The position numbers and the translations under genes were made by a program. The notes beneath the pieces were generated by a model, which made no database searches, had not been told where the DNA came from, and saw only the letters and a program-made list of their open reading frames with translations. A DNA stretch of 64,000 nucleotides, taken from Escherichia coli (GTDB taxonomy: Bacteria; Pseudomonadota; Gammaproteobacteria; Enterobacterales; Enterobacteriaceae). The first letter of the stretch is position 1. The number at the start of each line of letters is the position of its first letter. Location: NCBI RefSeq assembly GCF_050320075.1, contig NZ_CP190018.1. The stretch is one strand, 5' to 3'. Below are positions 20,910 through 28,702 of this stretch, piece after piece.

Positions 20910-21496
20910 GTGATGAACGCTACCAACAGCGTCAGCAGCGAGTGAAAGAAAAAGTCGATGCTCGTGTGGCCCAGGCCCAGGATGAACGCGGTATTATCAT
21001 CGTTTTTACCGGCAATGGAAAAGGCAAAACCACCGCGGCATTTGGTACGGCAACTCGTGCAGTAGGCCATGGCAAAAAAGTGGGTATCGTGCAGTTTATT
21101 AAAGGCACCTGGCCTAATGGCGAGCGCAATCTACTGGAGCCACATGGCGTTGAGTTTCAGGTGATGGCAACGGGCTTTACCTGGGATACACAAAATCGCG
21201 AATCTGATACCGCGGCCTGCCGTGAAGTCTGGCAACATGCCAAACGAATGCTGGCCGATCCTTCACTGGATATGGTTTTGCTCGATGAGCTGACTTATAT
21301 GGTGGCGTATGATTATTTGCCACTTGAAGAAGTGGTGAAGGCGTTAAATGAACGTCCACATCAGCAAACCGTCATTATTACGGGTCGTGGTTGTCATCGG
21401 GATATACTTGAACTGGCGGATACGGTAAGTGAATTACGCCCCGTGAAACATGCGTTTGATGCCGGTGTAAAAGCGCAGATAGGGATTGACTACTAA
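20906..21496 (+). CDS. btuR: Cob(I)yrinic acid a,c-diamide adenosyltransferase, 196 aa
   Basis: 196 aa; P-loop GNGKGKTTAAFG; start overlaps the yciK stop (ATGA). Confidence 0.9.
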   Translation: MSDERYQQRQQRVKEKVDARVAQAQDERGIIIVFTGNGKGKTTAAFGTATRAVGHGKKVGIVQFIKGTWPNGERNLLEPHGVEFQVMATGFTWDTQNRESDTAACREVWQHAKRMLADPSLDMVLLDELTYMVAYDYLPLEEVVKALNERPHQQTVIITGRGCHRDILELADTVSELRPVKHAFDAGVKAQIGIDY

Positions 21497-21502
21497 GTGA
21501 AA

Positions 21503-21536
21503 GCACCTCAAAAGAAGCCTCTTGAGGTGCTTTAAT
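21503..21536 (+). terminator. Hairpin terminator after btuR, immediately abutting the IS1 left end
   Basis: gcacctcaa aagaagcctc ttgaggtgc followed by ttt. Confidence 0.5.
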
Positions 21537-21592
21537 CGGTAATGGTGCCAACTTACTGATTTAGTGTATGATGGTGTTTTTGAGGTGCTCCC

Positions 21593-21868
21593 GTGGCTTC
21601 CATCTCCATCAGTTGTCCCTCCTGCTCAGCTACTGAAGGCGTGGTGCGTAACGGTAAAAGTACTGCCGGACATCAGCGCTATCTCTGCTCTCACTGCCGT
21701 AAAACATGGCAACTGCAGTTCACTTACACCGCTTCTCAACCCGGTACACACCAGAAAATCATTGATATGGCCATGAATGGTGTTGGATGCCGGGCAACCG
21801 CCCGCATTATGGGCGTTGGCCTCAACACGATTTTACGTCACTTAAAAAACTCAGGCCGCAGTCGGTAA
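21593..21868 (+). CDS. insA: IS1 InsA (transposition repressor / N-terminal part of the transposase), 91 aa
   Basis: [46 protein letters not shown] with a zinc-finger motif; canonical InsA. Confidence 0.9.
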
Positions 21869-22290
21869 CCTCGCGCATACAGCCGGGCAGTGATGTGATT
21901 GTCTGCGCTGAAATGGACGAACAGTGGGGCTACGTCGGTGCTAAATCACGTCAGCGCTGGCTGTTTTACGCGTATGACAGGATACGGAGGACGGTTGTGG
22001 CGCACGTCTTCGGTGAACGCACTCTGGCCACACTGGAGCGTCTTCTGAGCCTGCTGTCGGCCTTTGAGGTCGTGGTATGGATGACGGATGGCTGGCCGCT
22101 GTATGAATCCCGCCTGAAGGGAAAGCTGCACGTAATCAGCAAGCGTTACACTCAGCGCATTGAGCGACATAACCTGAATCTGAGACAACATCTGGCAAGG
22201 CTGGGACGGAAGTCACTGTCGTTCTCAAAATCGGTGGAGCTGCATGACAAAGTCATCGGGCATTATCTGAACATAAAACACTATCAGTAA
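21787..22290 (+). CDS. insB: IS1 InsB frame; expressed as the InsAB' transposase by -1 frameshifting at A6C (21844..21850)
   Basis: ORF overlapping the insA 3' end in the -1 frame; contains [21 protein letters not shown] typical of InsB. Confidence 0.85.
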
Positions 22291-22319
22291 GTTGGAGTCA
22301 TTACCGCTTCAAATGAAGA

Positions 22320-22346
22320 AAAGGCCCCGCAGGGCCTTTATTTTAT
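22320..22346 (-). terminator. Hairpin terminator downstream of rluB (potentially bidirectional)
   Basis: aaggccccgcagggcctt flanked by an A-run upstream and a T-run downstream. Confidence 0.5.
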
Positions 22347-22358
22347 ACTTATCTTAAA

Positions 22359-23234
22359 TTAACCGTTATTATTACGTCCACCAGAACGACGACCGCCGCT
22401 CACCTGACTGTGACGCTTAACCGCTCGACGAATCTGATTCGCCTTCATACGACGACGGTCTTTTTCTACAGCGACTTTAGAGCTGGTTTCTGGCGGTAGC
22501 TCCACCAGTTCGCGCAGATAGTTAGTCTGGGCGAGGTCCAGCTCCGTCCAGCCACCGCGTGGCAGACCTTTCGGCAGTGGGATATCACCGTAACGAACAC
22601 GGATCAGGCGGCTTACCTGCACACCAACCGCTTCCCAAAGACGACGAACTTCACGGTTACGGCCTTCGGTCAGAGTAACGTTGTACCACTGGTTGATCCC
22701 TTCGCCGCCGCTGAACTTGATGGTTTTAAAGGCTGCCGGACCATCTTCCAACTGCACGCCACGACTCAAATCACGCAGTTTCGCGTCGTCAACCTGACCA
22801 AATACACGCACGGCATATTCACGTTCAACTTCACGGCTTGGATGCATTAAGCGGTTTGCCAGTTCACCGTCGGTGGTAAACAGCAGCAGACCGCAGGTAT
22901 TAACGTCCAGACGACCCACGGCAATCCAGCGCGCACCGCGCAGCTTTGGCAGACGGTCAAACACCGTTGGACGCCCTTCCGGATCGTTACGGGTACACAA
23001 CTCACCTTCCGGTTTGTAATAGGCCAGAACGCGACAAATTTGTTCAGCGGACTCACGTACCGAAATAAGGTGACCATCGATACGGATTTTCAATCCAGGG
23101 GTAACTTCAACGCGATCGCCGAGTTTAGCAATTTTGCCATCAACACTCACACGACCGGCTTCAATAATAGATTCGATTTCACGGCGAGAACCGTGGCCGG
23201 CACGCGCCAGCACTTTCTGTAGCTTTTCGCTCAT
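22359..23234 (-). CDS. rluB: 23S rRNA pseudouridine(2605) synthase, 291 aa
   Basis: ORF 22359..23315 trimmed to [21 protein letters not shown] (S4 domain) followed by the RsuA/RluB catalytic domain; Arg/Gly-rich C-terminal tail. Confidence 0.9.
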
Positions 23235-23444
23235 AGAGCTTCCTTTTGGTGTCGCCTTCCCAGGCGTCTGATATGCTTTTGTGCAACAGTGAGTCAGAAC
23301 TGACATCTGACTCACTGATAGTAAAGTCTGTTTGAACTCTTCAGGCCTTAAGTAAACGACTCGACGTTTATCGGCCTGGCTTTGAGGCGCAACATACTAC
23401 ACTATCTTTATGGTTAAAGCTTGTTTCGATTAACGTCGATTTGG

Positions 23445-25340
23445 TTACCAACCACCACCGCCTCCGCCACCCGCACCGCCGCCAGCACCACCACCGGAAT
23501 AGCTTCGCCCCAACAAACTGGTATAGGCCCCGCAACTCAGGTGCGTCTGCAATGAGAATAAAACGCCACTACGGGCAATTTCCGGGGCGCTAACAGCCGC
23601 TGTGAGTGATGGGGTGATACGTTCTGCCCATTCTCTACCAAGGTTTGCCGAGACCGCCCAACCTAACAACGCGTAATCCAGTTTCCGTGTTTCCCCTTTC
23701 CGCCGCCGCCCACTGTGTGTTGCCGCCTCTTTACGCGCAAGATAGTTAACGATAGCTTCACCGTGGGCATAACGTTGCTGCCCAGTTTGGGTAAACTTTG
23801 GCAGAAAAATATACCCCATGCCAGTGAGATAACCGGTCAGGACAACAGCGCTAAAATAACCCGCTGGCATATACCAGTAAAAGAATACATCTCCGACATT
23901 GATATAGAGAGAATAGAAGGCCACACCTGAACAAATCAGTGGTAAAAACAAAGTGATGATTACACGATTAACGCAAGGCTTGTCATCATCGCGGGCAAAC
24001 AAAAGCTCAAGGGAACAAAATAAAAAAGGAAGAAGCCAGCAGATCATAATAAACATATCGCCCACCAGACTCATTCCTGCCCAGCCTACGGGACTCAGGT
24101 TACCGTAGAGAATGACCGCCAATATTGCCATTCCGCCCCATTGCAAAAACGCATCAGGTCGGTAAAACGAAGACTTTTTACGCGGCAGATAAAATTTCTG
24201 CATCCGTAAAAATGCCCTGCGTAACACTCTGTTGCGTCTCCCCGTAAGAACGACCTTATCGCCTTTACGAAATAACGCTTCCAGTAATAACTGCTCTGCG
24301 GGCAGTAATACCGCATTATTTCTGGTCGCGCCTTCATTAACACGAATCAGGATTTGCTGGTTCTTGTCATACTGATCTTCCAGATGAATTTTGCCTTTCA
24401 CAATCAGATTTACGATATCGGCACAAAAACCTTTATCGTCGTAAACCAGCTTCGCATCGAGACGTAACATGCCGGGCGTGTAATCTGGCGGAATGACATC
24501 GGTTTCAATCACATCTACCGGCGTAAATTGCGGCCTGCGCTTCCAGAGATATAACCATCCACAAACCATGAGCAGACACGGAAACCAAATTAACAACGAT
24601 GACGTGGAGGGTAAAAGAAGATGGCTGAAAATATTCGTCGTTTGTAGAGCCGGGGCATTGCTAAGTAAAGCGTGAGGCCAGCGATAGAGGACCGTGAAGT
24701 CTTCACGATAAAACGGATCGCGGGATTCAATTCTTCCGTCCTCAAGGATGCGGCCATTTCGATATGTGTCGCCCTCTTCTCCGGTAAAGAGATCAATTTC
24801 GCTAAATGGATTACCCGCAATATTAGAGATCTGGAGAGAAAATCGGGTCTTATAAATTTCAAACGGCCACTTGTTACCGGTCACGTTCCAGATTAACAGA
24901 TCAGAATCTCCCTCACGCAGGAAAGCATTTTTAACCTGATAATGAATTTGATAATGATAGTCACCTTGAGGCAAGAAACGTTGTTTATCGCCCACGACAA
25001 TACTCATTAAACCGATATGCCAGTCAAGATGCCAGGGTTCAGGAACACCATCACGGGTGACGCCAACAATATGATAGTTCAGCAGTGCAGCGTCACCATC
25101 AGGCTGCATCCATAGTCGTGGTAAATCACGATAAAATCCGTGCTTAATCTGCTGATTTCGCGCCTGAAAATGAATGTTCTCTTTGATGTCGAGCACCCCA
25201 TCCAGTTGCAGGGTGGCTTCAACATCAAAGAGCGAGATCCCTTCTTCATAAGAAGGGATCTCCGTGTTTTCTGCATAACTTAGAGATGATACAAACAGCC
25301 CTGCTATCAACAGCAAAATGCAGCGAAACTTCCCTGCCAT
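23445..25340 (-). CDS. yciQ: DUF2207-family inner membrane protein YciQ, 631 aa, with a C-terminal poly-Gly tail
   Basis: 631 aa; signal/TM segment at the N-terminus, several TM helices in the C-terminal third, ends ...SYSGGGAGGGAGGGGGGGW. Confidence 0.8.
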   Translation of the reverse strand: MAGKFRCILLLIAGLFVSSLSYAENTEIPSYEEGISLFDVEATLQLDGVLDIKENIHFQARNQQIKHGFYRDLPRLWMQPDGDAALLNYHIVGVTRDGVPEPWHLDWHIGLMSIVVGDKQRFLPQGDYHYQIHYQVKNAFLREGDSDLLIWNVTGNKWPFEIYKTRFSLQISNIAGNPFSEIDLFTGEEGDTYRNGRILEDGRIESRDPFYREDFTVLYRWPHALLSNAPALQTTNIFSHLLLPSTSSLLIWFPCLLMVCGWLYLWKRRPQFTPVDVIETDVIPPDYTPGMLRLDAKLVYDDKGFCADIVNLIVKGKIHLEDQYDKNQQILIRVNEGATRNNAVLLPAEQLLLEALFRKGDKVVLTGRRNRVLRRAFLRMQKFYLPRKKSSFYRPDAFLQWGGMAILAVILYGNLSPVGWAGMSLVGDMFIMICWLLPFLFCSLELLFARDDDKPCVNRVIITLFLPLICSGVAFYSLYINVGDVFFYWYMPAGYFSAVVLTGYLTGMGYIFLPKFTQTGQQRYAHGEAIVNYLARKEAATHSGRRRKGETRKLDYALLGWAVSANLGREWAERITPSLTAAVSAPEIARSGVLFSLQTHLSCGAYTSLLGRSYSGGGAGGGAGGGGGGGW

Positions 25341-25367
25341 AGTCTTCCATCCGTGGAACGCAATTTG

Positions 25368-25988
25368 TTATAAGAAAGGCTTCACATCACCTACGCCTTC
25401 ACGCACCACGACCGGCGTATCATCAGTAAGATCAATAACCGTTGTTGGTTTCTGCCCGAGATAGCCGCCGTGAATAATCAAATCTACCTGTTTTTCCAGA
25501 CGGTCTTTAATTTCTTCCGGATCGGATTCGGTAAATTCGCTACCTGGCAGCATCAGTGATGTGGAAAGCATCGGTTCGCCCAATGCTTCAAGCAGCGCCT
25601 GCGCAATCGGGTTAGAAGGCACACGCATACCGATGGTTTTGCGTTTTTCCTGCAACAGACGGCGTGGCACCTCCTTCGTCCCTTTCAGGATGAAGGTGTA
25701 GTTGCCCGGCGTGTTGTTTTTCATTAAACGAAACGCAACGTTATCCACGAATGAATAGGTCGAGAGCTCAGAAAGATCGCGACACATCAGGGTAAAGTTG
25801 TGACCGTCCGGCAGCTGGCGAATACGACAAATACGCTCCATGGCGTTTTTATCTTCAATTTTACAGCCGAGCGCATAGCCGGAATCAGTTGGATAAACAA
25901 TCACCCCGCCTTTACGCACGATCTCCACCGCCTGGTTGATCAGACGTTGCTGCGGGTTATCAGGATGAATATAAAAAAACTGGCTCAT
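25368..25988 (-). CDS. yciO: YrdC/Sua5-family protein YciO, 206 aa
   Basis: ORF 25368..26024 trimmed to MSQFFYIHPDNPQQRLINQAVEIVRKGGVIVYPTDSGYALGC (YrdC fold signature). Confidence 0.85.
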   Translation of the reverse strand: MSQFFYIHPDNPQQRLINQAVEIVRKGGVIVYPTDSGYALGCKIEDKNAMERICRIRQLPDGHNFTLMCRDLSELSTYSFVDNVAFRLMKNNTPGNYTFILKGTKEVPRRLLQEKRKTIGMRVPSNPIAQALLEALGEPMLSTSLMLPGSEFTESDPEEIKDRLEKQVDLIIHGGYLGQKPTTVIDLTDDTPVVVREGVGDVKPFL

Positions 25989-26866
25989 AATTCCCTCTCT
26001 GTGGTGTTCTGCGGCTGTTCCCATAGCTGCCAGACGCCTTCAACGCCTGCAGGCAGCCAGAGTTTACGACCCAGTTCAATCCACGGGCACGGCTGATGAA
26101 AATCAGATCCTTGTGATGCCCATAAATGATGCTGACGCGCAAGTGTGGCCAGCTGGGTGCGTTCATTGGGCGATTGCTGGCACTGCGCGACTTCCATCGC
26201 GTCGCCGTGGTGTTCGGCAAAATGCGCAACCAATCTTTTCAGCCATTTAGCACTAAGATTGTACCGCCCAGGATGAGCTAGCACCGCCTTACCGCCAGAA
26301 TGATGAATGACATCAATAGCTTGTTCTATTGTACACCACTGTGGCGGAACGTATCCGGTTTTCCCGCGCGCCAGATATTTTTTAAAGACATCCGCCATTG
26401 AACTGGCTTTGCCGCACTCCACAAGGAAACGCGCAAAATGACCGCGCGTCACCGCACCGCCCTGCGCCAGTCGTTGCGCGCCTTCCAGCGCCCCAGGTAT
26501 TTGCGCTTTTTCAAGTCTTTCAGCAATCAGCTGCGCCCGCTGATTGCGCCGTTCTGTCTGCTGCGCGAGGAACTCACACATTAGCGGATGAGTAATATCA
26601 ATATTCAGCCCGACAATATGAATTTCATGATTTTCCCAGACCGTGGAAATTTCCACGCCGGGAATAAGATTCAGCGCCAGTCCCGAACGTGAAATTTCCT
26701 CTCTTGCTGGTGAGATTGCAGCTGTGGTGTCATGGTCGGTGATCGCCAGGGTGCCGACGCGCATCTCGACTGCACGGTGCACCAATGCTTCTGGCGTCAG
26801 GCAGCCATCGGAAGCTGTGGTATGGCTGTGCAGGTCGTAAATCACTGCGTAATTCGTGTCGCTCAA
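25985..26866 (-). CDS. trpH: PHP-domain phosphoesterase / 5'-3' exoribonuclease RNase AM (TrpH/YciV), 293 aa
   Basis: PHP motif YDLHSHTTASDG at the N-terminus; 293 aa; divergent from the trp promoter; stop overlaps the yciO start by 4 nt. Confidence 0.85.
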   Translation of the reverse strand: MSDTNYAVIYDLHSHTTASDGCLTPEALVHRAVEMRVGTLAITDHDTTAAISPAREEISRSGLALNLIPGVEISTVWENHEIHIVGLNIDITHPLMCEFLAQQTERRNQRAQLIAERLEKAQIPGALEGAQRLAQGGAVTRGHFARFLVECGKASSMADVFKKYLARGKTGYVPPQWCTIEQAIDVIHHSGGKAVLAHPGRYNLSAKWLKRLVAHFAEHHGDAMEVAQCQQSPNERTQLATLARQHHLWASQGSDFHQPCPWIELGRKLWLPAGVEGVWQLWEQPQNTTEREL

Positions 26867-26941
26867 GGCGCACTCCCGTTCTGGATAATGTTTTTTGCGC
26901 CGACATCATAACGGTTCTGGCAAATATTCTGAAATGAGCTG

Positions 26942-26978
26942 TTGACAATTAATCATCGAACTAGTTAACTAGTACGCA
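26942..26978 (+). promoter_or_regulatory. trp promoter with TrpR operator
   Basis: -35 ttgaca (26942..26947), 17-bp spacer, -10 ttaact (26965..26970); operator palindrome cgaactagttaactagtacg overlaps the -10. Confidence 0.85.
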
Positions 26979-27003
26979 AGTTCACGTAAAAAGGGTATCG
27001 ACA

Positions 27004-27048
27004 ATGAAAGCAATTTTCGTACTGAAAGGTTGGTGGCGCACTTCCTGA
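27004..27048 (+). CDS. trpL: trp operon leader peptide, 14 aa ([14 protein letters not shown])
   Basis: Hand translation; tandem Trp codons tgg tgg at codons 10-11. Confidence 0.9.
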
Positions 27049-27090
27049 AACGGGCAGTGTATTCACCATGCGTAAAGCAATCAGATACCC

Positions 27091-27118
27091 AGCCCGCCTA
27101 ATGAGCGGGCTTTTTTTT
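27091..27118 (+). terminator. trp attenuator (3:4 terminator hairpin)
   Basis: agcccgcctaatgagcgggc followed by tttttttt, located 20 nt upstream of trpE. Confidence 0.85.
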
Positions 27119-27139
27119 GAACAAAATTAGAGAATAACA

Positions 27140-28702
27140 ATGCAAACACAAAAACCGACTCTCGAACTGCTAACCTGCGAAGGCACTTATCGCGACAACC
27201 CGACTGCGCTTTTTCACCAGTTGTGTGGGAATCGTCCAGCAACGCTGCTGCTGGAATCCGCAGATATCGACAGCAAAGATGATTTAAAAAGCCTGCTGCT
27301 GATAGACAGTGCGCTGCGCATTACAGCATTAGGTGACACTGTCACAATTCAGGCACTTTCTGGCAATGGCGAAGCCCTGCTGGCACTACTGGATAACGCC
27401 CTGCCTGCGGGTGTGGAAAGTGAACAATCACCAAACTGCCGTGTGCTGCGCTTCCCCCCTGTCAGTCCACTGCTGGATGAAGACGCCCGCTTATGCTCCC
27501 TTTCTGTTTTTAACGCTTTCCGTTTATTGCAGAATCTGTTGAATGTACCGAAGGAAGAACGAGAAGCCATGTTCTTCGGCGGCCTGTTCTCTTATGACCT
27601 TGTGGCGGGATTTGAAGATTTACCGCAACTGGCAGCGGAAAATAACTGTCCTGATTTCTGCTTTTATCTCGCAGAAACGCTGATGGTGATTGACCATCAG
27701 AAAAAAAGCACCCGCATTCAGGCCAGCCTGTTTGCTCCGAATGAAGAAGAAAAACAACGTCTCACTGCTCGCCTGAACGATCTTCGCCAGCAGCTGACCG
27801 AAGCCGCGCCACCGCTGCCGGTGGTTTCCGTGCCGCATATGCGTTGTGAATGTAATCAGAGCGATGAAGAGTTCGGTGGCGTAGTGCGTTTGTTGCAAAA
27901 AGCGATTCGCGCTGGAGAAATTTTCCAGGTGGTGCCATCTCGCCGTTTCTCTCTGCCCTGCCCGTCACCGCTGGCGGCCTATTACGTGCTGAAAAAGAGT
28001 AATCCCAGCCCGTACATGTTTTTTATGCAGGATAATGATTTCACCCTGTTTGGCGCGTCGCCGGAAAGTTCGCTCAAGTATGACGCCACCAGCCGCCAGA
28101 TTGAGATCTACCCGATTGCCGGAACACGCCCGCGCGGTCGTCGCGCCGATGGCTCGCTGGACAGAGACCTCGACAGCCGCATCGAACTGGAAATGCGTAC
28201 CGATCATAAAGAGCTTTCTGAACATCTGATGCTGGTGGATCTCGCCCGTAATGATCTGGCACGCATTTGCACCCCCGGCAGCCGCTACGTCGCCGATCTC
28301 ACCAAAGTTGACCGTTACTCTTACGTGATGCACCTGGTCTCCCGCGTGGTCGGTGAGCTGCGCCACGATCTCGACGCCCTGCACGCTTACCGCGCCTGTA
28401 TGAATATGGGGACGTTAAGCGGTGCGCCGAAAGTACGCGCTATGCAGTTAATTGCCGAGGCGGAAGGTCGTCGCCGCGGCAGCTACGGCGGCGCGGTAGG
28501 TTATTTCACCGCGCATGGCGATCTCGACACCTGCATTGTGATCCGCTCGGCGCTGGTGGAAAACGGTATCGCCACCGTGCAAGCCGGTGCTGGCGTGGTA
28601 CTTGATTCTGTTCCGCAGTCGGAAGCCGACGAAACCCGTAATAAAGCCCGCGCTGTACTGCGCGCTATTGCCACCGCGCATCATGCACAGGAGACGTTCT
28701 GA
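27140..28702 (+). CDS. trpE: Anthranilate synthase component I, 520 aa
   Basis: 520 aa chorismate-binding enzyme; first gene after the attenuator. Confidence 0.95.

What the first reader, a model, noticed from the sequence alone, without database searches (positions are those of the whole stretch)
22359..26866. Co-directional rRNA-modification/maturation neighbourhood trpH-yciO-yciQ-rluB containing two uncharacterised genes
Four minus-strand genes are tightly packed. The trpH stop overlaps the yciO start by 4 nt, yciQ begins 27 bp after yciO ends, and rluB follows yciQ after about 210 bp (ATG 23234 vs yciQ stop at 23445). TrpH/YciV is a PHP-domain 5'-3' exoribonuclease reported to mature rRNA 5' ends, and RluB is a 23S rRNA pseudouridine synthase. 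Between them sit YciO (YrdC/Sua5 fold, a family that binds nucleotides or double-stranded RNA) and YciQ (a 631-aa DUF2207 membrane protein with a poly-Gly tail), both without an established function. By guilt-by-association, YciO and perhaps YciQ may act in ribosome biogenesis or RNA modification. This is a hypothesis about known but poorly characterised genes, not a new system.
Basis: inference. Interest (0 to 1): 0.4.

Follow-up and report, generated by a model that had tools for sequence, protein, structure and literature searches.

The report
Known E. coli rnm-yciO-yciQ-rluB locus
This is the well-known E. coli gene row next to the tryptophan operon: the pairing of the unknown-function gene yciO with rRNA-processing genes is real, ancient and already published. 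The membrane gene yciQ is an optional insert, missing from a quarter of E. coli strains, so its position says nothing about ribosomes.

Summary
On the minus strand lie rnm/trpH (25985-26866), yciO (25368-25988, ATGA overlap with rnm), yciQ (23445-25340, 27-bp gap) and rluB (22359-23234, 210-bp gap). The window is E. coli chromosome.

- **YciO.** In 80 other species, rnm sits directly upstream of yciO in 74, and rluB lies downstream on the same strand in 69. ScpA-scpB lie between yciO and rluB in lineages that keep them. In four metagenomic contexts of ~40%-identical YciO, none shows rnm upstream where the upstream DNA is readable, yet the yciO-scpA(-scpB-rluB) order persists. The yciO-rnm link and the "YciO acts on rRNA, not tRNA" hypothesis are already published (bioRxiv 2023; G3 2025).
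- **YciQ.** It is absent from all 80 species, including Escherichia albertii and Salmonella, and from 1,442 of 5,426 complete E. coli genomes. It belongs to a 2.1-kb cassette that replaced 66 bp of the conserved yciO-rluB spacer. It evolves far faster than its neighbours. Its homologues sit elsewhere (one next to LemA). It is predicted to be a secreted-domain membrane protein with no RNA-related fold.

Guilt by association therefore does not extend to YciQ. This is a known locus of low interest.

The parts
25985..26866 (-). rnm (trpH/yciV), RNase AM, a PHP-domain 5'-3' exoribonuclease
   Evidence: ORF; RefSeq 'RNase RNM'; Pfam PHP; NCBIfam equivalog NF047791 at 505 bits against a cut-off of 375; rRNA 5'-end maturation role from PMC7261194; oligo/diribonuclease role from PMC11528712.
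26905..26933 (-). Sigma-70-like promoter match upstream of rnm (TTCAGA-17-TATGAT)
   Evidence: This is a consensus match only; the number of matches in the region does not exceed the shuffle expectation.
25368..25988 (-). yciO, a TsaC/Sua5 paralogue of unknown in-vivo function; its start overlaps the rnm stop (ATGA)
   Evidence: Identical to PDB 1K7J/1KK9. Passes TIGR00057 (265 against 123) but fails the TsaC type-1 equivalog (72 against 175). 93-100% amino-acid identity across Enterobacteriaceae.
23269..25367 (-). 2,099-bp accessory cassette (yciQ plus 27 bp upstream and 176 bp downstream) that replaces 66 bp of the ancestral yciO-rluB spacer
   Evidence: BLAST of a yciQ-less E. coli allele (L095) against the window: homology ends at 25368 and resumes at 23268. 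Present in 3,976 and absent from 1,442 of 5,426 complete E. coli genomes.
23445..25340 (-). yciQ, a DUF2207 membrane protein with signal peptide, periplasmic beta-sandwich, transmembrane helices and Gly-rich tail
   Evidence: AlphaFold model with pLDDT 75. The N-domain resembles the Ost1/ribophorin I and M1-aminopeptidase N-domains. dN/dS is 0.14-0.18. GC is 47.4% against 54% for rnm and rluB.
23269..23444 (-). Structured non-coding segment downstream of yciQ and upstream of rluB, including a perfect 12-bp inverted repeat at 23287-23317
   Evidence: RNA fold of 23225-23444 gives -67.9 kcal/mol, z = -5.5. Inverted repeat I18. Single copy, found in exactly the yciQ-positive genomes. Only 5 differences in about 210 nt between alleles whose flanking genes have dS 0.12-0.16. 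No Rfam match.
23235..23268 (-). Conserved rluB leader (GACGCCTGGGAAGGCGACACC..AAGGAAGCTCT) shared by yciQ-positive and yciQ-less alleles
   Evidence: Alignments of E. coli, Salmonella, Klebsiella and E. albertii; homology breakpoint.
22359..23234 (-). rluB, 23S rRNA pseudouridine(2605) synthase
   Evidence: NCBIfam equivalog NF007976 at 631 bits against a cut-off of 290.
22320..22339 (-). Bidirectional intrinsic-terminator-like hairpin just after the rluB stop; the only terminator-like site at a gene boundary in the row
   Evidence: AAAGGCCCTGCGGGGCCTTT followed by a T-rich tail.

Best explanation
The locus is a composite of three layers of different age, not one functional module.

(1) Old core. 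A co-directional array rnm > yciO > (scpA > scpB) > rluB lies divergent from the trp operon and is conserved through Gammaproteobacteria. Rnm and yciO are usually overlapping or nearly touching, so they are probably co-transcribed and translationally coupled (inferred). In Enterobacterales, Vibrionales and Pasteurellales the scpAB pair is absent, which brings rluB next to yciO.

(2) rluB expression signals. rluB keeps a conserved 34-nt leader, and a promoter-like element sits in the spacer. It can therefore be expressed on its own as well as by read-through (inferred). No terminator-like site separates the genes.

(3) Recent insertion. In most, but not all, E. coli and in the Klebsiella oxytoca group, a 2.1-kb cassette has replaced 66 bp of the yciO-rluB spacer. 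It carries yciQ and a structured 176-nt tail.

Functional consequences.
- YciO is most likely an RNA-binding, ATP-using enzyme or cofactor. It probably works with RNase AM on rRNA ends or short RNAs, and possibly in the same 50S-maturation context as RluB. It is not a second t6A enzyme. This rests on conserved context plus published genetics and structure, and is inferred rather than shown.
- YciQ is an accessory envelope protein of the LemA-associated DUF2207 kind. Its large N-terminal domain faces the periplasm, and it has no role in rRNA maturation.
For: Gene identities.

Synteny in 80 species loci obtained with a YciO profile:
- Rnm adjacent upstream on the same strand in 74 of 80.
- RluB downstream on the same strand in 69 of 80. 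Four of the 11 misses are truncated contigs.
- YciQ in 0 of 80.
- Architectures: rnm>yciO>rluB in 40 loci and rnm>yciO>scpA>scpB>rluB in 23, plus one more with trpS2 inserted. ScpA and ScpB confirmed by Pfam.
- rnm-yciO junction overlapping in 31 of 74 loci and no more than 30 nt apart in another 13.

Distant YciO (~40% identity), four contexts with readable neighbours (L087, L088, L089/L090, L093): yciO>scpA>scpB>RluB-type synthase, with no rnm where the upstream DNA is readable, and the RluB model as best match.

yciQ as an insertion:
- Salmonella and E. albertii have a 100-bp yciO-rluB spacer.
- 1,442 of 5,426 E. coli genomes have the same direct junction and 3,976 have yciQ.
- Breakpoints at 25367/23269.
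- Other Enterobacterales carry unrelated cargo in the same spacer.

yciQ divergence: 57% amino-acid identity to Klebsiella, against 95% for YciO and 94% for RluB. Within E. coli, dN/dS is 0.18 against 0-0.05 for its neighbours.

yciQ homologues elsewhere: at a metK/speA locus in Serratia fonticola, and directly after LemA in another genome.

yciQ structure: signal peptide, periplasmic Ost1/M1-N-like beta-sandwich, transmembrane helices.

Operon signals: no terminator-like site between the genes and one after rluB. The operon is listed as 'yciVOQ' with an internal promoter in PMC3946193. The spacer and leader are conserved.

Literature on YciO: it does not replace TsaC in vivo, has a conserved basic patch, and clusters with rnm.
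Against: - No transcript data were examined, so operon structure, translational coupling and the rluB promoter are inferred from sequence only. The promoter matches do not exceed shuffle expectation.
- The 80 loci are the best-scoring of at least 600 candidates. Nearly all are Gammaproteobacteria and they are not phylogenetically independent.
- The distant loci are few (four contexts with readable neighbours, L087, L088, L089/L090 and L093; two further contigs, L086 and L094, were too short to show them) and their taxa are unknown.
- Conserved adjacency is a weak functional argument at this locus. Divergent trpE is conserved in 57 of 80 loci yet is functionally unrelated. The scpAB-rluB order is conserved even in mycobacteria without a known functional link.
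- RNase AM mutants have no growth phenotype, and the enzyme also acts as an oligo/diribonuclease. YciO's partner process may therefore not be rRNA maturation.
- yciQ is under purifying selection (dN/dS about 0.15), and RegulonDB-style annotation puts it in the yciVOQ operon. Some regulatory coupling with rnm-yciO in E. coli is therefore not excluded.
Confidence: 0.8

Rival explanations
1. One reading: all four genes, including YciQ, form one rRNA maturation/modification module, with YciQ acting in ribosome biogenesis.
For: The genes are co-directional and tightly packed, with no terminator-like site between them. The operon is listed as yciVOQ. yciQ is under purifying selection.
Against: YciQ is absent from 80 of 80 other species, including E. 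albertii and Salmonella, and from 1,442 of 5,426 E. coli genomes. It is a cassette with defined breakpoints. Its homologues sit in unrelated contexts or next to LemA. It has a signal peptide and a periplasmic N-domain, and no RNA-related fold. The same spacer holds unrelated cargo in other genera.
Confidence: 0.04
2. The synteny is purely historical. Rnm, yciO and rluB are neighbours only through inherited gene order, as with the adjacent trp operon, and YciO shares no process with either enzyme.
For: Divergent trpE is conserved next to rnm in 57 of 80 loci without a functional link. The rluB adjacency in E. coli arises from the absence of scpAB, which intervene elsewhere. scpA-scpB-rluB is conserved in mycobacteria with no known shared function. 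Rnm is missing in Pasteurellaceae while yciO-rluB persists, and rnm is absent upstream of the distant yciO genes examined wherever the upstream DNA is readable.
Against: Start/stop overlap of rnm and yciO in 31 of 74 loci, and gaps of no more than 30 nt in another 13, indicate co-expression rather than mere proximity. YciO carries a conserved basic, RNA-binding-like surface and an adenylate-forming active site. yciO overlaps scpA in distant loci.
Confidence: 0.25
3. YciO is a genuine, redundant L-threonylcarbamoyladenylate synthase, as RefSeq and NCBIfam name it, and simply backs up TsaC for tRNA t6A.
For: It passes NCBIfam TIGR00057 (265 bits against a cut-off of 123). RefSeq uses that product name. 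Weak in-vitro TC-AMP synthesis has been reported (PMC10645960, as discussed).
Against: yciO does not complement yeast sua5 or E. coli tsaC essentiality even when over-expressed. The TsaC KxR/SxN signature is reported absent, and activity is more than 10,000-fold below TsaC. It fails the TsaC type-1 equivalog model (72 against 175). Its gene context differs from that of tsaC.
Confidence: 0.04
4. YciO's real partners are ScpA/ScpB (chromosome condensation and segregation) rather than RNA enzymes.
For: yciO is immediately followed by scpA-scpB in at least 24 gammaproteobacterial loci and in the distant loci. In L089/L090 yciO overlaps scpA by 8 nt.
Against: yciO is retained at 93-100% identity in Enterobacteriaceae, in loci that lack scpAB. 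The fold and surface point to nucleotide and RNA binding.
Confidence: 0.08

Closest known systems
E. coli K-12 trpH(yciV/rnm)-yciO-yciQ-rluB region (the 'yciVOQ' operon plus rluB) beside trpLEDCBA
   Same: Same genes, order, strand and spacings. The window is 100% identical to sequenced E. coli chromosomes annotated this way. The operon is listed as yciVOQ in PMC3946193.
   Different: Nothing substantive. This strain additionally carries an IS1 between rluB and cobO.
Published yciO-rnm gene cluster and the 'YciO acts in rRNA metabolism' hypothesis (de Crecy-Lagard and co-workers, bioRxiv 10.1101/2023.12.18.571875; G3 2025, PMC12506659)
   Same: Same inference from the same neighbourhood. YciO is a non-isofunctional TsaC paralogue with a conserved basic patch, clustered with RNase AM.
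   Different: Those papers do not mention rluB, scpA/scpB or yciQ. Here the downstream scpAB-rluB linkage appears at least as deep as the rnm linkage, and yciQ is shown to be an accessory insertion.
scpA-scpB-rluB conserved gene order (for example scpA-scpB-rluB-cmk-engA in mycobacteria, PMC3323550)
   Same: Many gammaproteobacterial loci and the distant loci carry yciO>scpA>scpB>rluB. rluB follows scpB as in mycobacteria.
   Different: E. coli and the other Enterobacterales, Vibrionales and Pasteurellales loci lack scpAB at this locus, leaving yciO directly before rluB. From general knowledge, not tested here, these orders use MukBEF instead of Smc-ScpAB.
LemA-DUF2207 gene pairs and DUF2207 proteins such as S. 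mutans SMU.243 (PMC10457818)
   Same: YciQ passes both DUF2207 Pfam models. A 29%-identical homologue sits directly after a LemA gene. The only characterised member affects stress tolerance and biofilm, not RNA.
   Different: E. coli yciQ has no LemA neighbour. It is highly divergent (no more than 57% identity outside E. coli) and narrowly distributed.

Membership tests
RNase AM / Rnm (PHP-domain 5'-3' exoribonuclease) | Sequence membership: PHP domain and the NCBIfam RNase RNM equivalog above its cut-off | tested here: met
   PF02811 at 36.4 bits against 26.4; NF047791 at 505.4 bits against 375.
RNase AM / Rnm (PHP-domain 5'-3' exoribonuclease) | 5'-3' exonuclease activity that trims 3 nt from the 5' ends of 5S, 16S and 23S rRNA | not testable with these tools
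   Shown for the E. coli protein in PMC7261194. The window protein is the same gene.
RluB (23S rRNA pseudouridine 2605 synthase) | S4 plus PseudoU_synth_2 architecture, with the RluB equivalog above its cut-off and well above the paralogue models | tested here: met
   NF007976 at 630.7 bits against 290; RluF 119, RsuA 98, RluE 72.
TsaC/Sua5 L-threonylcarbamoyladenylate synthase (for YciO) | YrdC/Sua5 fold (PF01300) | tested here: met
   PF01300 at 175 bits; identical to the solved YciO structures 1K7J/1KK9.
TsaC/Sua5 L-threonylcarbamoyladenylate synthase (for YciO) | TsaC type-1 equivalog model above its cut-off | tested here: not met
   NF007919 at 71.9 bits against a cut-off of 175. The broader TIGR00057 model is passed (265 against 123), which is the over-annotation criticised in PMC12506659.
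TsaC/Sua5 L-threonylcarbamoyladenylate synthase (for YciO) | KxR...SxN signature and in-vivo t6A function (complementation of sua5/tsaC) | not tested
   Reported absent or negative for E. coli YciO in PMC2685093 and PMC3223725. The window protein reads R57-Q58-L59-P60 in the region where those papers place the TsaC K50-x-R52 motif (sequence). I did not align it to TsaC.
DUF2207 membrane proteins (for YciQ) | DUF2207 N-terminal and C-terminal Pfam domains above their gathering scores | tested here: met
   PF09972 at 73.5 bits against 24.4; PF20990 at 38.6 bits against 33.
DUF2207 membrane proteins (for YciQ) | Adjacent LemA partner gene (a frequent family context, not an obligatory one) | tested here: not met
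   The neighbours in the window are yciO and rluB. A 29%-identical homologue does follow LemA.
Conserved rnm-yciO-(scpAB)-rluB gene array | yciO flanked by rnm upstream and rluB downstream on the same strand, beyond Enterobacteriaceae | tested here: met
   Rnm in 74 of 80 and RluB in 69 of 80 species loci spanning six gammaproteobacterial orders.
Conserved rnm-yciO-(scpAB)-rluB gene array | yciQ as a conserved member of that array | tested here: not met
   Found in 0 of 80 species loci. Absent from 1,442 of 5,426 E. coli genomes. The Serratia fonticola homologue is at another locus.
Single four-gene operon | Co-transcription across all three junctions | not testable with these tools
   No terminator-like sites between the genes and one after rluB. 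The operon is listed as yciVOQ with an internal promoter. A promoter-like element and conserved leader lie upstream of rluB. No transcript data were available.

The most novel reading that the evidence does not exclude
YciO's oldest conserved neighbours may be scpA-scpB-rluB rather than rnm. In the metagenomic contexts of ~40%-identical YciO, rnm is absent upstream wherever that DNA is readable, but yciO>scpA>scpB>rluB persists, once with a ribosome-associated ABC-F ATPase inserted. If that order reflects function, YciO could act in the RluB / 50S late-assembly context. One possibility is an unrecognised ATP-dependent RNA modification or chaperoning step near 23S helix 89. RNase AM would then be a later, gammaproteobacterial addition. 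This angle is not raised in the published yciO-rnm work.
Probability: 0.15. Interest if true: 0.5.

Novelty: already known. Interest (0 to 1): 0.18.

Why it matters
YciO is one of the better-conserved proteins of unknown function in E. coli, and it is mis-named in RefSeq as a TC-AMP synthase, so any solid lead to its substrate matters. This analysis adds no new system, but it sharpens the lead in three ways. First, experiments should target YciO together with RNase AM and RluB (and ScpAB in organisms that have them). Second, YciQ should be dropped from that hypothesis. Third, natural yciQ-positive and yciQ-less E. coli strains provide a ready-made control. The locus also illustrates how an accessory insertion inside a conserved gene row can mislead guilt-by-association reasoning.

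Tried and rejected
- **Profile too broad.** A 47-sequence YciO alignment was too degenerate for the genome scan. An 8-sequence alignment worked.
- **Taxon names.** Looking up names for the distant YciO representatives returned none, so those loci remain taxonomically unassigned.
- **Rfam.** The only hit in 21400-27300 was the trp leader; no known RNA family covers the structured yciQ-rluB spacer.
- **Repeat element.** I tested whether that spacer is a dispersed repeat (REP/ERIC-like). It is single-copy and strictly linked to yciQ, so the idea was rejected.
- **Promoter and terminator scans.** They gave no more matches than shuffled sequence, so they serve only as weak pointers.
- **Solved structures for YciQ.** A sequence search of the PDB found nothing. 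Fold searches gave only generic beta-sandwich similarity for the N-domain, to Ost1/ribophorin I and the M1 aminopeptidase N-domain, with low whole-chain TM-scores. No catalytic inference was drawn.
- **Palindrome in yciQ.** The 29-bp perfect palindrome (25234-25262) was considered as a possible site or terminator. It is absent from the Klebsiella orthologue, and comparable inverted repeats occur elsewhere in the window, so it was left as an unexplained curiosity.
- **Foreign origin of yciQ.** GC content is only mildly low (47.4% against 49-54%), so composition alone does not prove horizontal transfer.
- **Literature on the junctions.** Searches for yciVOQ and related junction names, and for yciQ, gave no functional study of yciQ. 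The papers that mention it use it mainly as a neutral chromosomal integration site.

Full report
**What is there.** The window is E. coli chromosome. The 5.2 kb around the finding is 100% identical to NZ_CP123240, and 5,425 of 5,426 complete E. coli genomes match at least part of it. RefSeq annotates, on the window's minus strand:
- rnm (RNase RNM, formerly trpH/yciV)
- yciO
- yciQ (DUF2207 domain-containing protein)
- rluB (23S rRNA pseudouridine-2605 synthase)

These lie between the divergently transcribed trpL-trpEDCBA and cobO-yciK. In this strain an IS1 sits between rluB and cobO.

- The rnm stop and yciO start share ATGA.
- 27 bp separate yciO and yciQ.
- 210 bp separate yciQ and the rluB ATG at 23234.

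Domain content is as stated. NCBIfam equivalog models confirm Rnm (505 bits, cut-off 375) and RluB (631 bits, cut-off 290).

**What is already known.**
- RNase AM removes the last three nucleotides from the 5' ends of 5S, 16S and 23S rRNA (PMC7261194). It also degrades short oligo- and diribonucleotides, and its loss gives no growth defect in E. coli (PMC11528712).
- YciO has solved structures (1K7J, 1KK9).
- YciO does not complement loss of Sua5 or TsaC, and the TsaC KxR/SxN signature is reported absent from it (PMC2685093, PMC3223725).
- A 2023 preprint and a 2025 G3 paper argue from yciO-rnm clustering and a conserved basic surface patch that YciO acts in rRNA rather than tRNA metabolism.

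Those papers mention neither rluB, scpA/scpB nor yciQ. RefSeq's product name for YciO, 'L-threonylcarbamoyladenylate synthase', arises because YciO passes the broad TIGR00057 model. It fails the TsaC type-1 model (72 bits, cut-off 175).

**Test of synteny beyond Enterobacteriaceae.** I collected diverse YciO representatives by an exhaustive HMMER search. I built a small profile from them and scanned one genome per GTDB species. The 80 best loci, each with 10-kb flanks, cover:
- Enterobacteriaceae and other Enterobacterales families
- Pasteurellales, Vibrionales, Aeromonadales, Alteromonadales and Pseudomonadales-like taxa
- one Neisseriales MAG

tblastn with the four window proteins gave these counts:
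- Rnm directly upstream on the same strand in 74 of 80.
- RluB downstream on the same strand in 69 of 80. Four of the eleven misses are truncated contigs.
- YciQ in none.

The rnm-yciO coding regions overlap in 31 of 74 loci, mostly by the same ATGA, and lie no more than 30 nt apart in another 13.

The yciO-to-rluB distance is bimodal. It is about 100-340 bp in roughly half of the 69 loci, chiefly Enterobacterales, Vibrionales and Pasteurellales. It is about 1.4-1.9 kb in Aeromonas, Shewanella, most Alteromonadales and the Pseudomonadales-like taxa. Pfam shows that the larger gap holds scpA and scpB.

The overall architectures are:
- rnm>yciO>rluB in 40 loci
- rnm>yciO>scpA>scpB>rluB in 23 loci, plus one more with trpS2 inserted

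**Deeper relatives.** I looked up six YciO representatives at about 40% identity in metagenome assemblies; two (L086 and L094) lay on contigs too short to show neighbours.
- L087, L088 and L089/L090 show no PHP gene upstream of yciO; in L093 the contig begins 88 bp before yciO, so its upstream is unknown.
- L087, L089/L090 and L093 carry yciO>scpA>scpB followed by a pseudouridine synthase. In L089/L090 yciO overlaps scpA by 8 nt. In L093 an ABC-F ATPase is inserted.
- In L088 the contig ends within the gene after scpA.
- These synthases match the RluB model far better than the paralogue models (255-301 bits against no more than 100).
- scpA-scpB-rluB-cmk-engA is also a conserved order in mycobacteria (PMC3323550).

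The yciO-rluB adjacency seen in E. coli is therefore best read as what remains of a yciO-scpA-scpB-rluB row after loss of scpAB. From general knowledge, not tested here, the orders lacking scpAB at this locus use MukBEF instead of Smc-ScpAB.

**Strength of the argument.** This supports an old association of YciO with RluB and ScpAB, and a gammaproteobacterial one with RNase AM. It also shows how sticky gene order is at this locus. The divergent trpE is conserved next to rnm in 57 of 80 loci although RNase AM has nothing to do with tryptophan synthesis. Adjacency alone is weak evidence here. The start/stop overlaps are the stronger argument for rnm-yciO.

**yciQ is an accessory insertion.**
- *Distribution of homologues.* A search of 5.8 billion clustered proteins found close YciQ relatives only in E. 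coli (96-97%), the Klebsiella oxytoca group (51-57%) and Serratia fonticola (38%). Everything else is at or below 30%. YciO, by contrast, is 93% identical in Salmonella and about 80% in Erwinia.
- *Related species.* Salmonella and Escherichia albertii have yciO followed by rluB after about 100 bp. In Klebsiella, yciQ occupies the same slot.
- *Within E. coli.* 3,976 of 5,426 complete genomes carry yciQ. 1,442 have the uninterrupted yciO-rluB junction, and these two classes account for almost all genomes.
- *Breakpoints.* Comparing a yciQ-less strain (EC42405) with the window places homology breakpoints at 25367/25368 and 23268/23269. That means 2,099 bp in the window replace 66 bp of the ancestral spacer. 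The yciO stop and the last 34 nt before the rluB ATG are untouched.
- *A hotspot.* Other Enterobacterales carry unrelated genes in the same spacer: a LysR regulator, a PTS/PRD-regulator operon, an alpha/beta hydrolase and a lipoprotein. Two Oceanospirillales-like loci carry an H-NS gene there. The spacer is an insertion hotspot.
- *Rate of evolution.* YciQ evolves much faster than its neighbours. Against Klebsiella it is 57% identical, compared with YciO 95%, RluB 94% and Rnm 78%. Within E. coli its dN/dS is 0.18, against 0 to 0.05 for the neighbours. It is still under purifying selection, so it is a working gene.
- *Disruptions.* It is interrupted by IS elements in some strains.
- *Context elsewhere.* The S. 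fonticola homologue lies between metK and an iron-uptake operon. A 29%-identical homologue lies directly after a LemA gene.

**What YciQ looks like.** An AlphaFold model built on 28 homologues (mean pLDDT 75) shows, in order:
- a signal peptide
- a beta-sandwich domain (residues 34-222)
- a transmembrane helix
- a small cytoplasmic alpha/beta domain
- four long membrane helices
- C-terminal helices and a disordered glycine tail

**Expression signals (all inferred).**
- Consensus scans find a promoter-like site upstream of rnm and a bidirectional terminator-like hairpin right after rluB. No terminator-like site falls between the genes. The counts do not exceed shuffle expectation.
- A 2014 RpoD promoter survey lists the operon as yciVOQ with an internal promoter between yciO and yciQ.
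- In yciQ-less genomes the 100-bp yciO-rluB spacer is 93% conserved between E. coli, Salmonella and E. albertii. It contains a TTAACT-18-TAAAAT match and a GC hairpin whose closing pair covaries.
- In the yciQ-positive allele, the segment between yciQ and the rluB leader folds unusually well (z = -5.5). It is single-copy and present in exactly the yciQ-positive genomes. It differs at only 5 of about 210 positions between two alleles whose flanking genes have dS 0.12-0.16. It has no Rfam match.
- rluB therefore probably has its own promoter and a structured 5' region in both allele types, with read-through from upstream possible.

**Verdict.**
- The YciO part is sound but already published.
- The rluB link is real as conserved order, though partly a relic of scpAB loss.

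The locus is already known, and interest is low.

The most novel reading my evidence leaves open is that YciO's oldest association is with scpAB-rluB rather than with rnm. That would point experiments towards the RluB / 50S context. It rests on three complete contexts plus one truncated one, all of unknown taxonomy, and on a locus where gene order is demonstrably sticky.

Noticed in passing
window 21560-22330: An IS1 element (InsA/InsB frameshift ORFs) sits between rluB and cobO. Among the listed hits only two E. coli genomes match this configuration at 100%; in others the region aligns in two pieces. It is a strain-specific insertion just beyond the rluB terminator.
   Followed up: partly
window 23269-23444 (minus strand): The non-coding stretch between yciQ and the rluB leader folds far better than shuffles (z = -5.5) and contains a perfect 12-bp inverted repeat (23287-23317). 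It is single-copy and occurs only in yciQ-positive genomes. It is much more conserved than synonymous sites in the flanking genes, and it has no Rfam match. It could be a structured rluB 5' UTR, a yciQ 3' element or an unannotated small RNA.
   Followed up: partly
window 25234-25262: A 29-bp perfect palindrome (GAGATCCCTTCTT ATG AAGAAGGGATCTC) lies inside the 5' part of yciQ, encoding EIPSYEEGIS. It is identical in a divergent E. coli allele but absent from the Klebsiella orthologue. Its purpose is unknown and it may be incidental.
   Followed up: partly
window 22359-25988 compared with L096 (E. coli GN02350): Synonymous divergence between two E. coli strains is high across yciO, yciQ and rluB (dS 0.12-0.16) compared with rnm (0.065). 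This suggests old, recombining haplotypes around the presence/absence polymorphism.
   Followed up: no
L012, L013, L015, L016, L021, L027, L029, L037, L079, L083 (spacer downstream of yciO): The yciO-rluB spacer carries different, unrelated cargo in different genera. Examples are a LysR regulator, a PTS/PRD-regulator/glycosidase operon of about 7 kb, an alpha/beta hydrolase, a lipoprotein and an H-NS gene. It behaves as a recurrent insertion hotspot.
   Followed up: partly
L093 712-2544: In one distant metagenomic locus an ABC-F ATPase lies between yciO and scpA-scpB-rluB. Its best NCBIfam matches are PRK10636 and 'ribosomal protection-like ABC-F'. That makes another translation-related neighbour of YciO.
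   Followed up: no
L035, L036, L055 (Pasteurellaceae), L060 (Candidatus Enterovibrio escacola): rnm is missing within 10 kb upstream while yciO-rluB stay adjacent. YciO can therefore persist without a neighbouring, and perhaps without any, RNase AM gene.
   Followed up: no
L075, L081, L082: In Pseudomonas-like, soil proteobacterial and Neisseriales loci a second tryptophanyl-tRNA synthetase-like gene (PF00579, 406 aa) lies between yciO and scpA.
   Followed up: no
window 25368-25988: RefSeq and NCBIfam (TIGR00057, kind 'equivalog') name YciO 'L-threonylcarbamoyladenylate synthase', although published genetics show it does not perform TsaC's role. This is a propagating over-annotation.
   Followed up: yes
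protein P0133: A 399-aa predicted protein from an assembled sequencing run combines SohB peptidase domains with a segment 92% identical to YciQ. It is probably a deletion or an assembly chimera joining sohB and yciQ.
   Followed up: no
L095 3267-4589 (E. coli EC42405): In this yciQ-less strain two 'hypothetical protein' genes (about 333 and 102 aa) follow rluB where the window has IS1 and cobO. This is further strain-to-strain variability on the other side of rluB.
   Followed up: no
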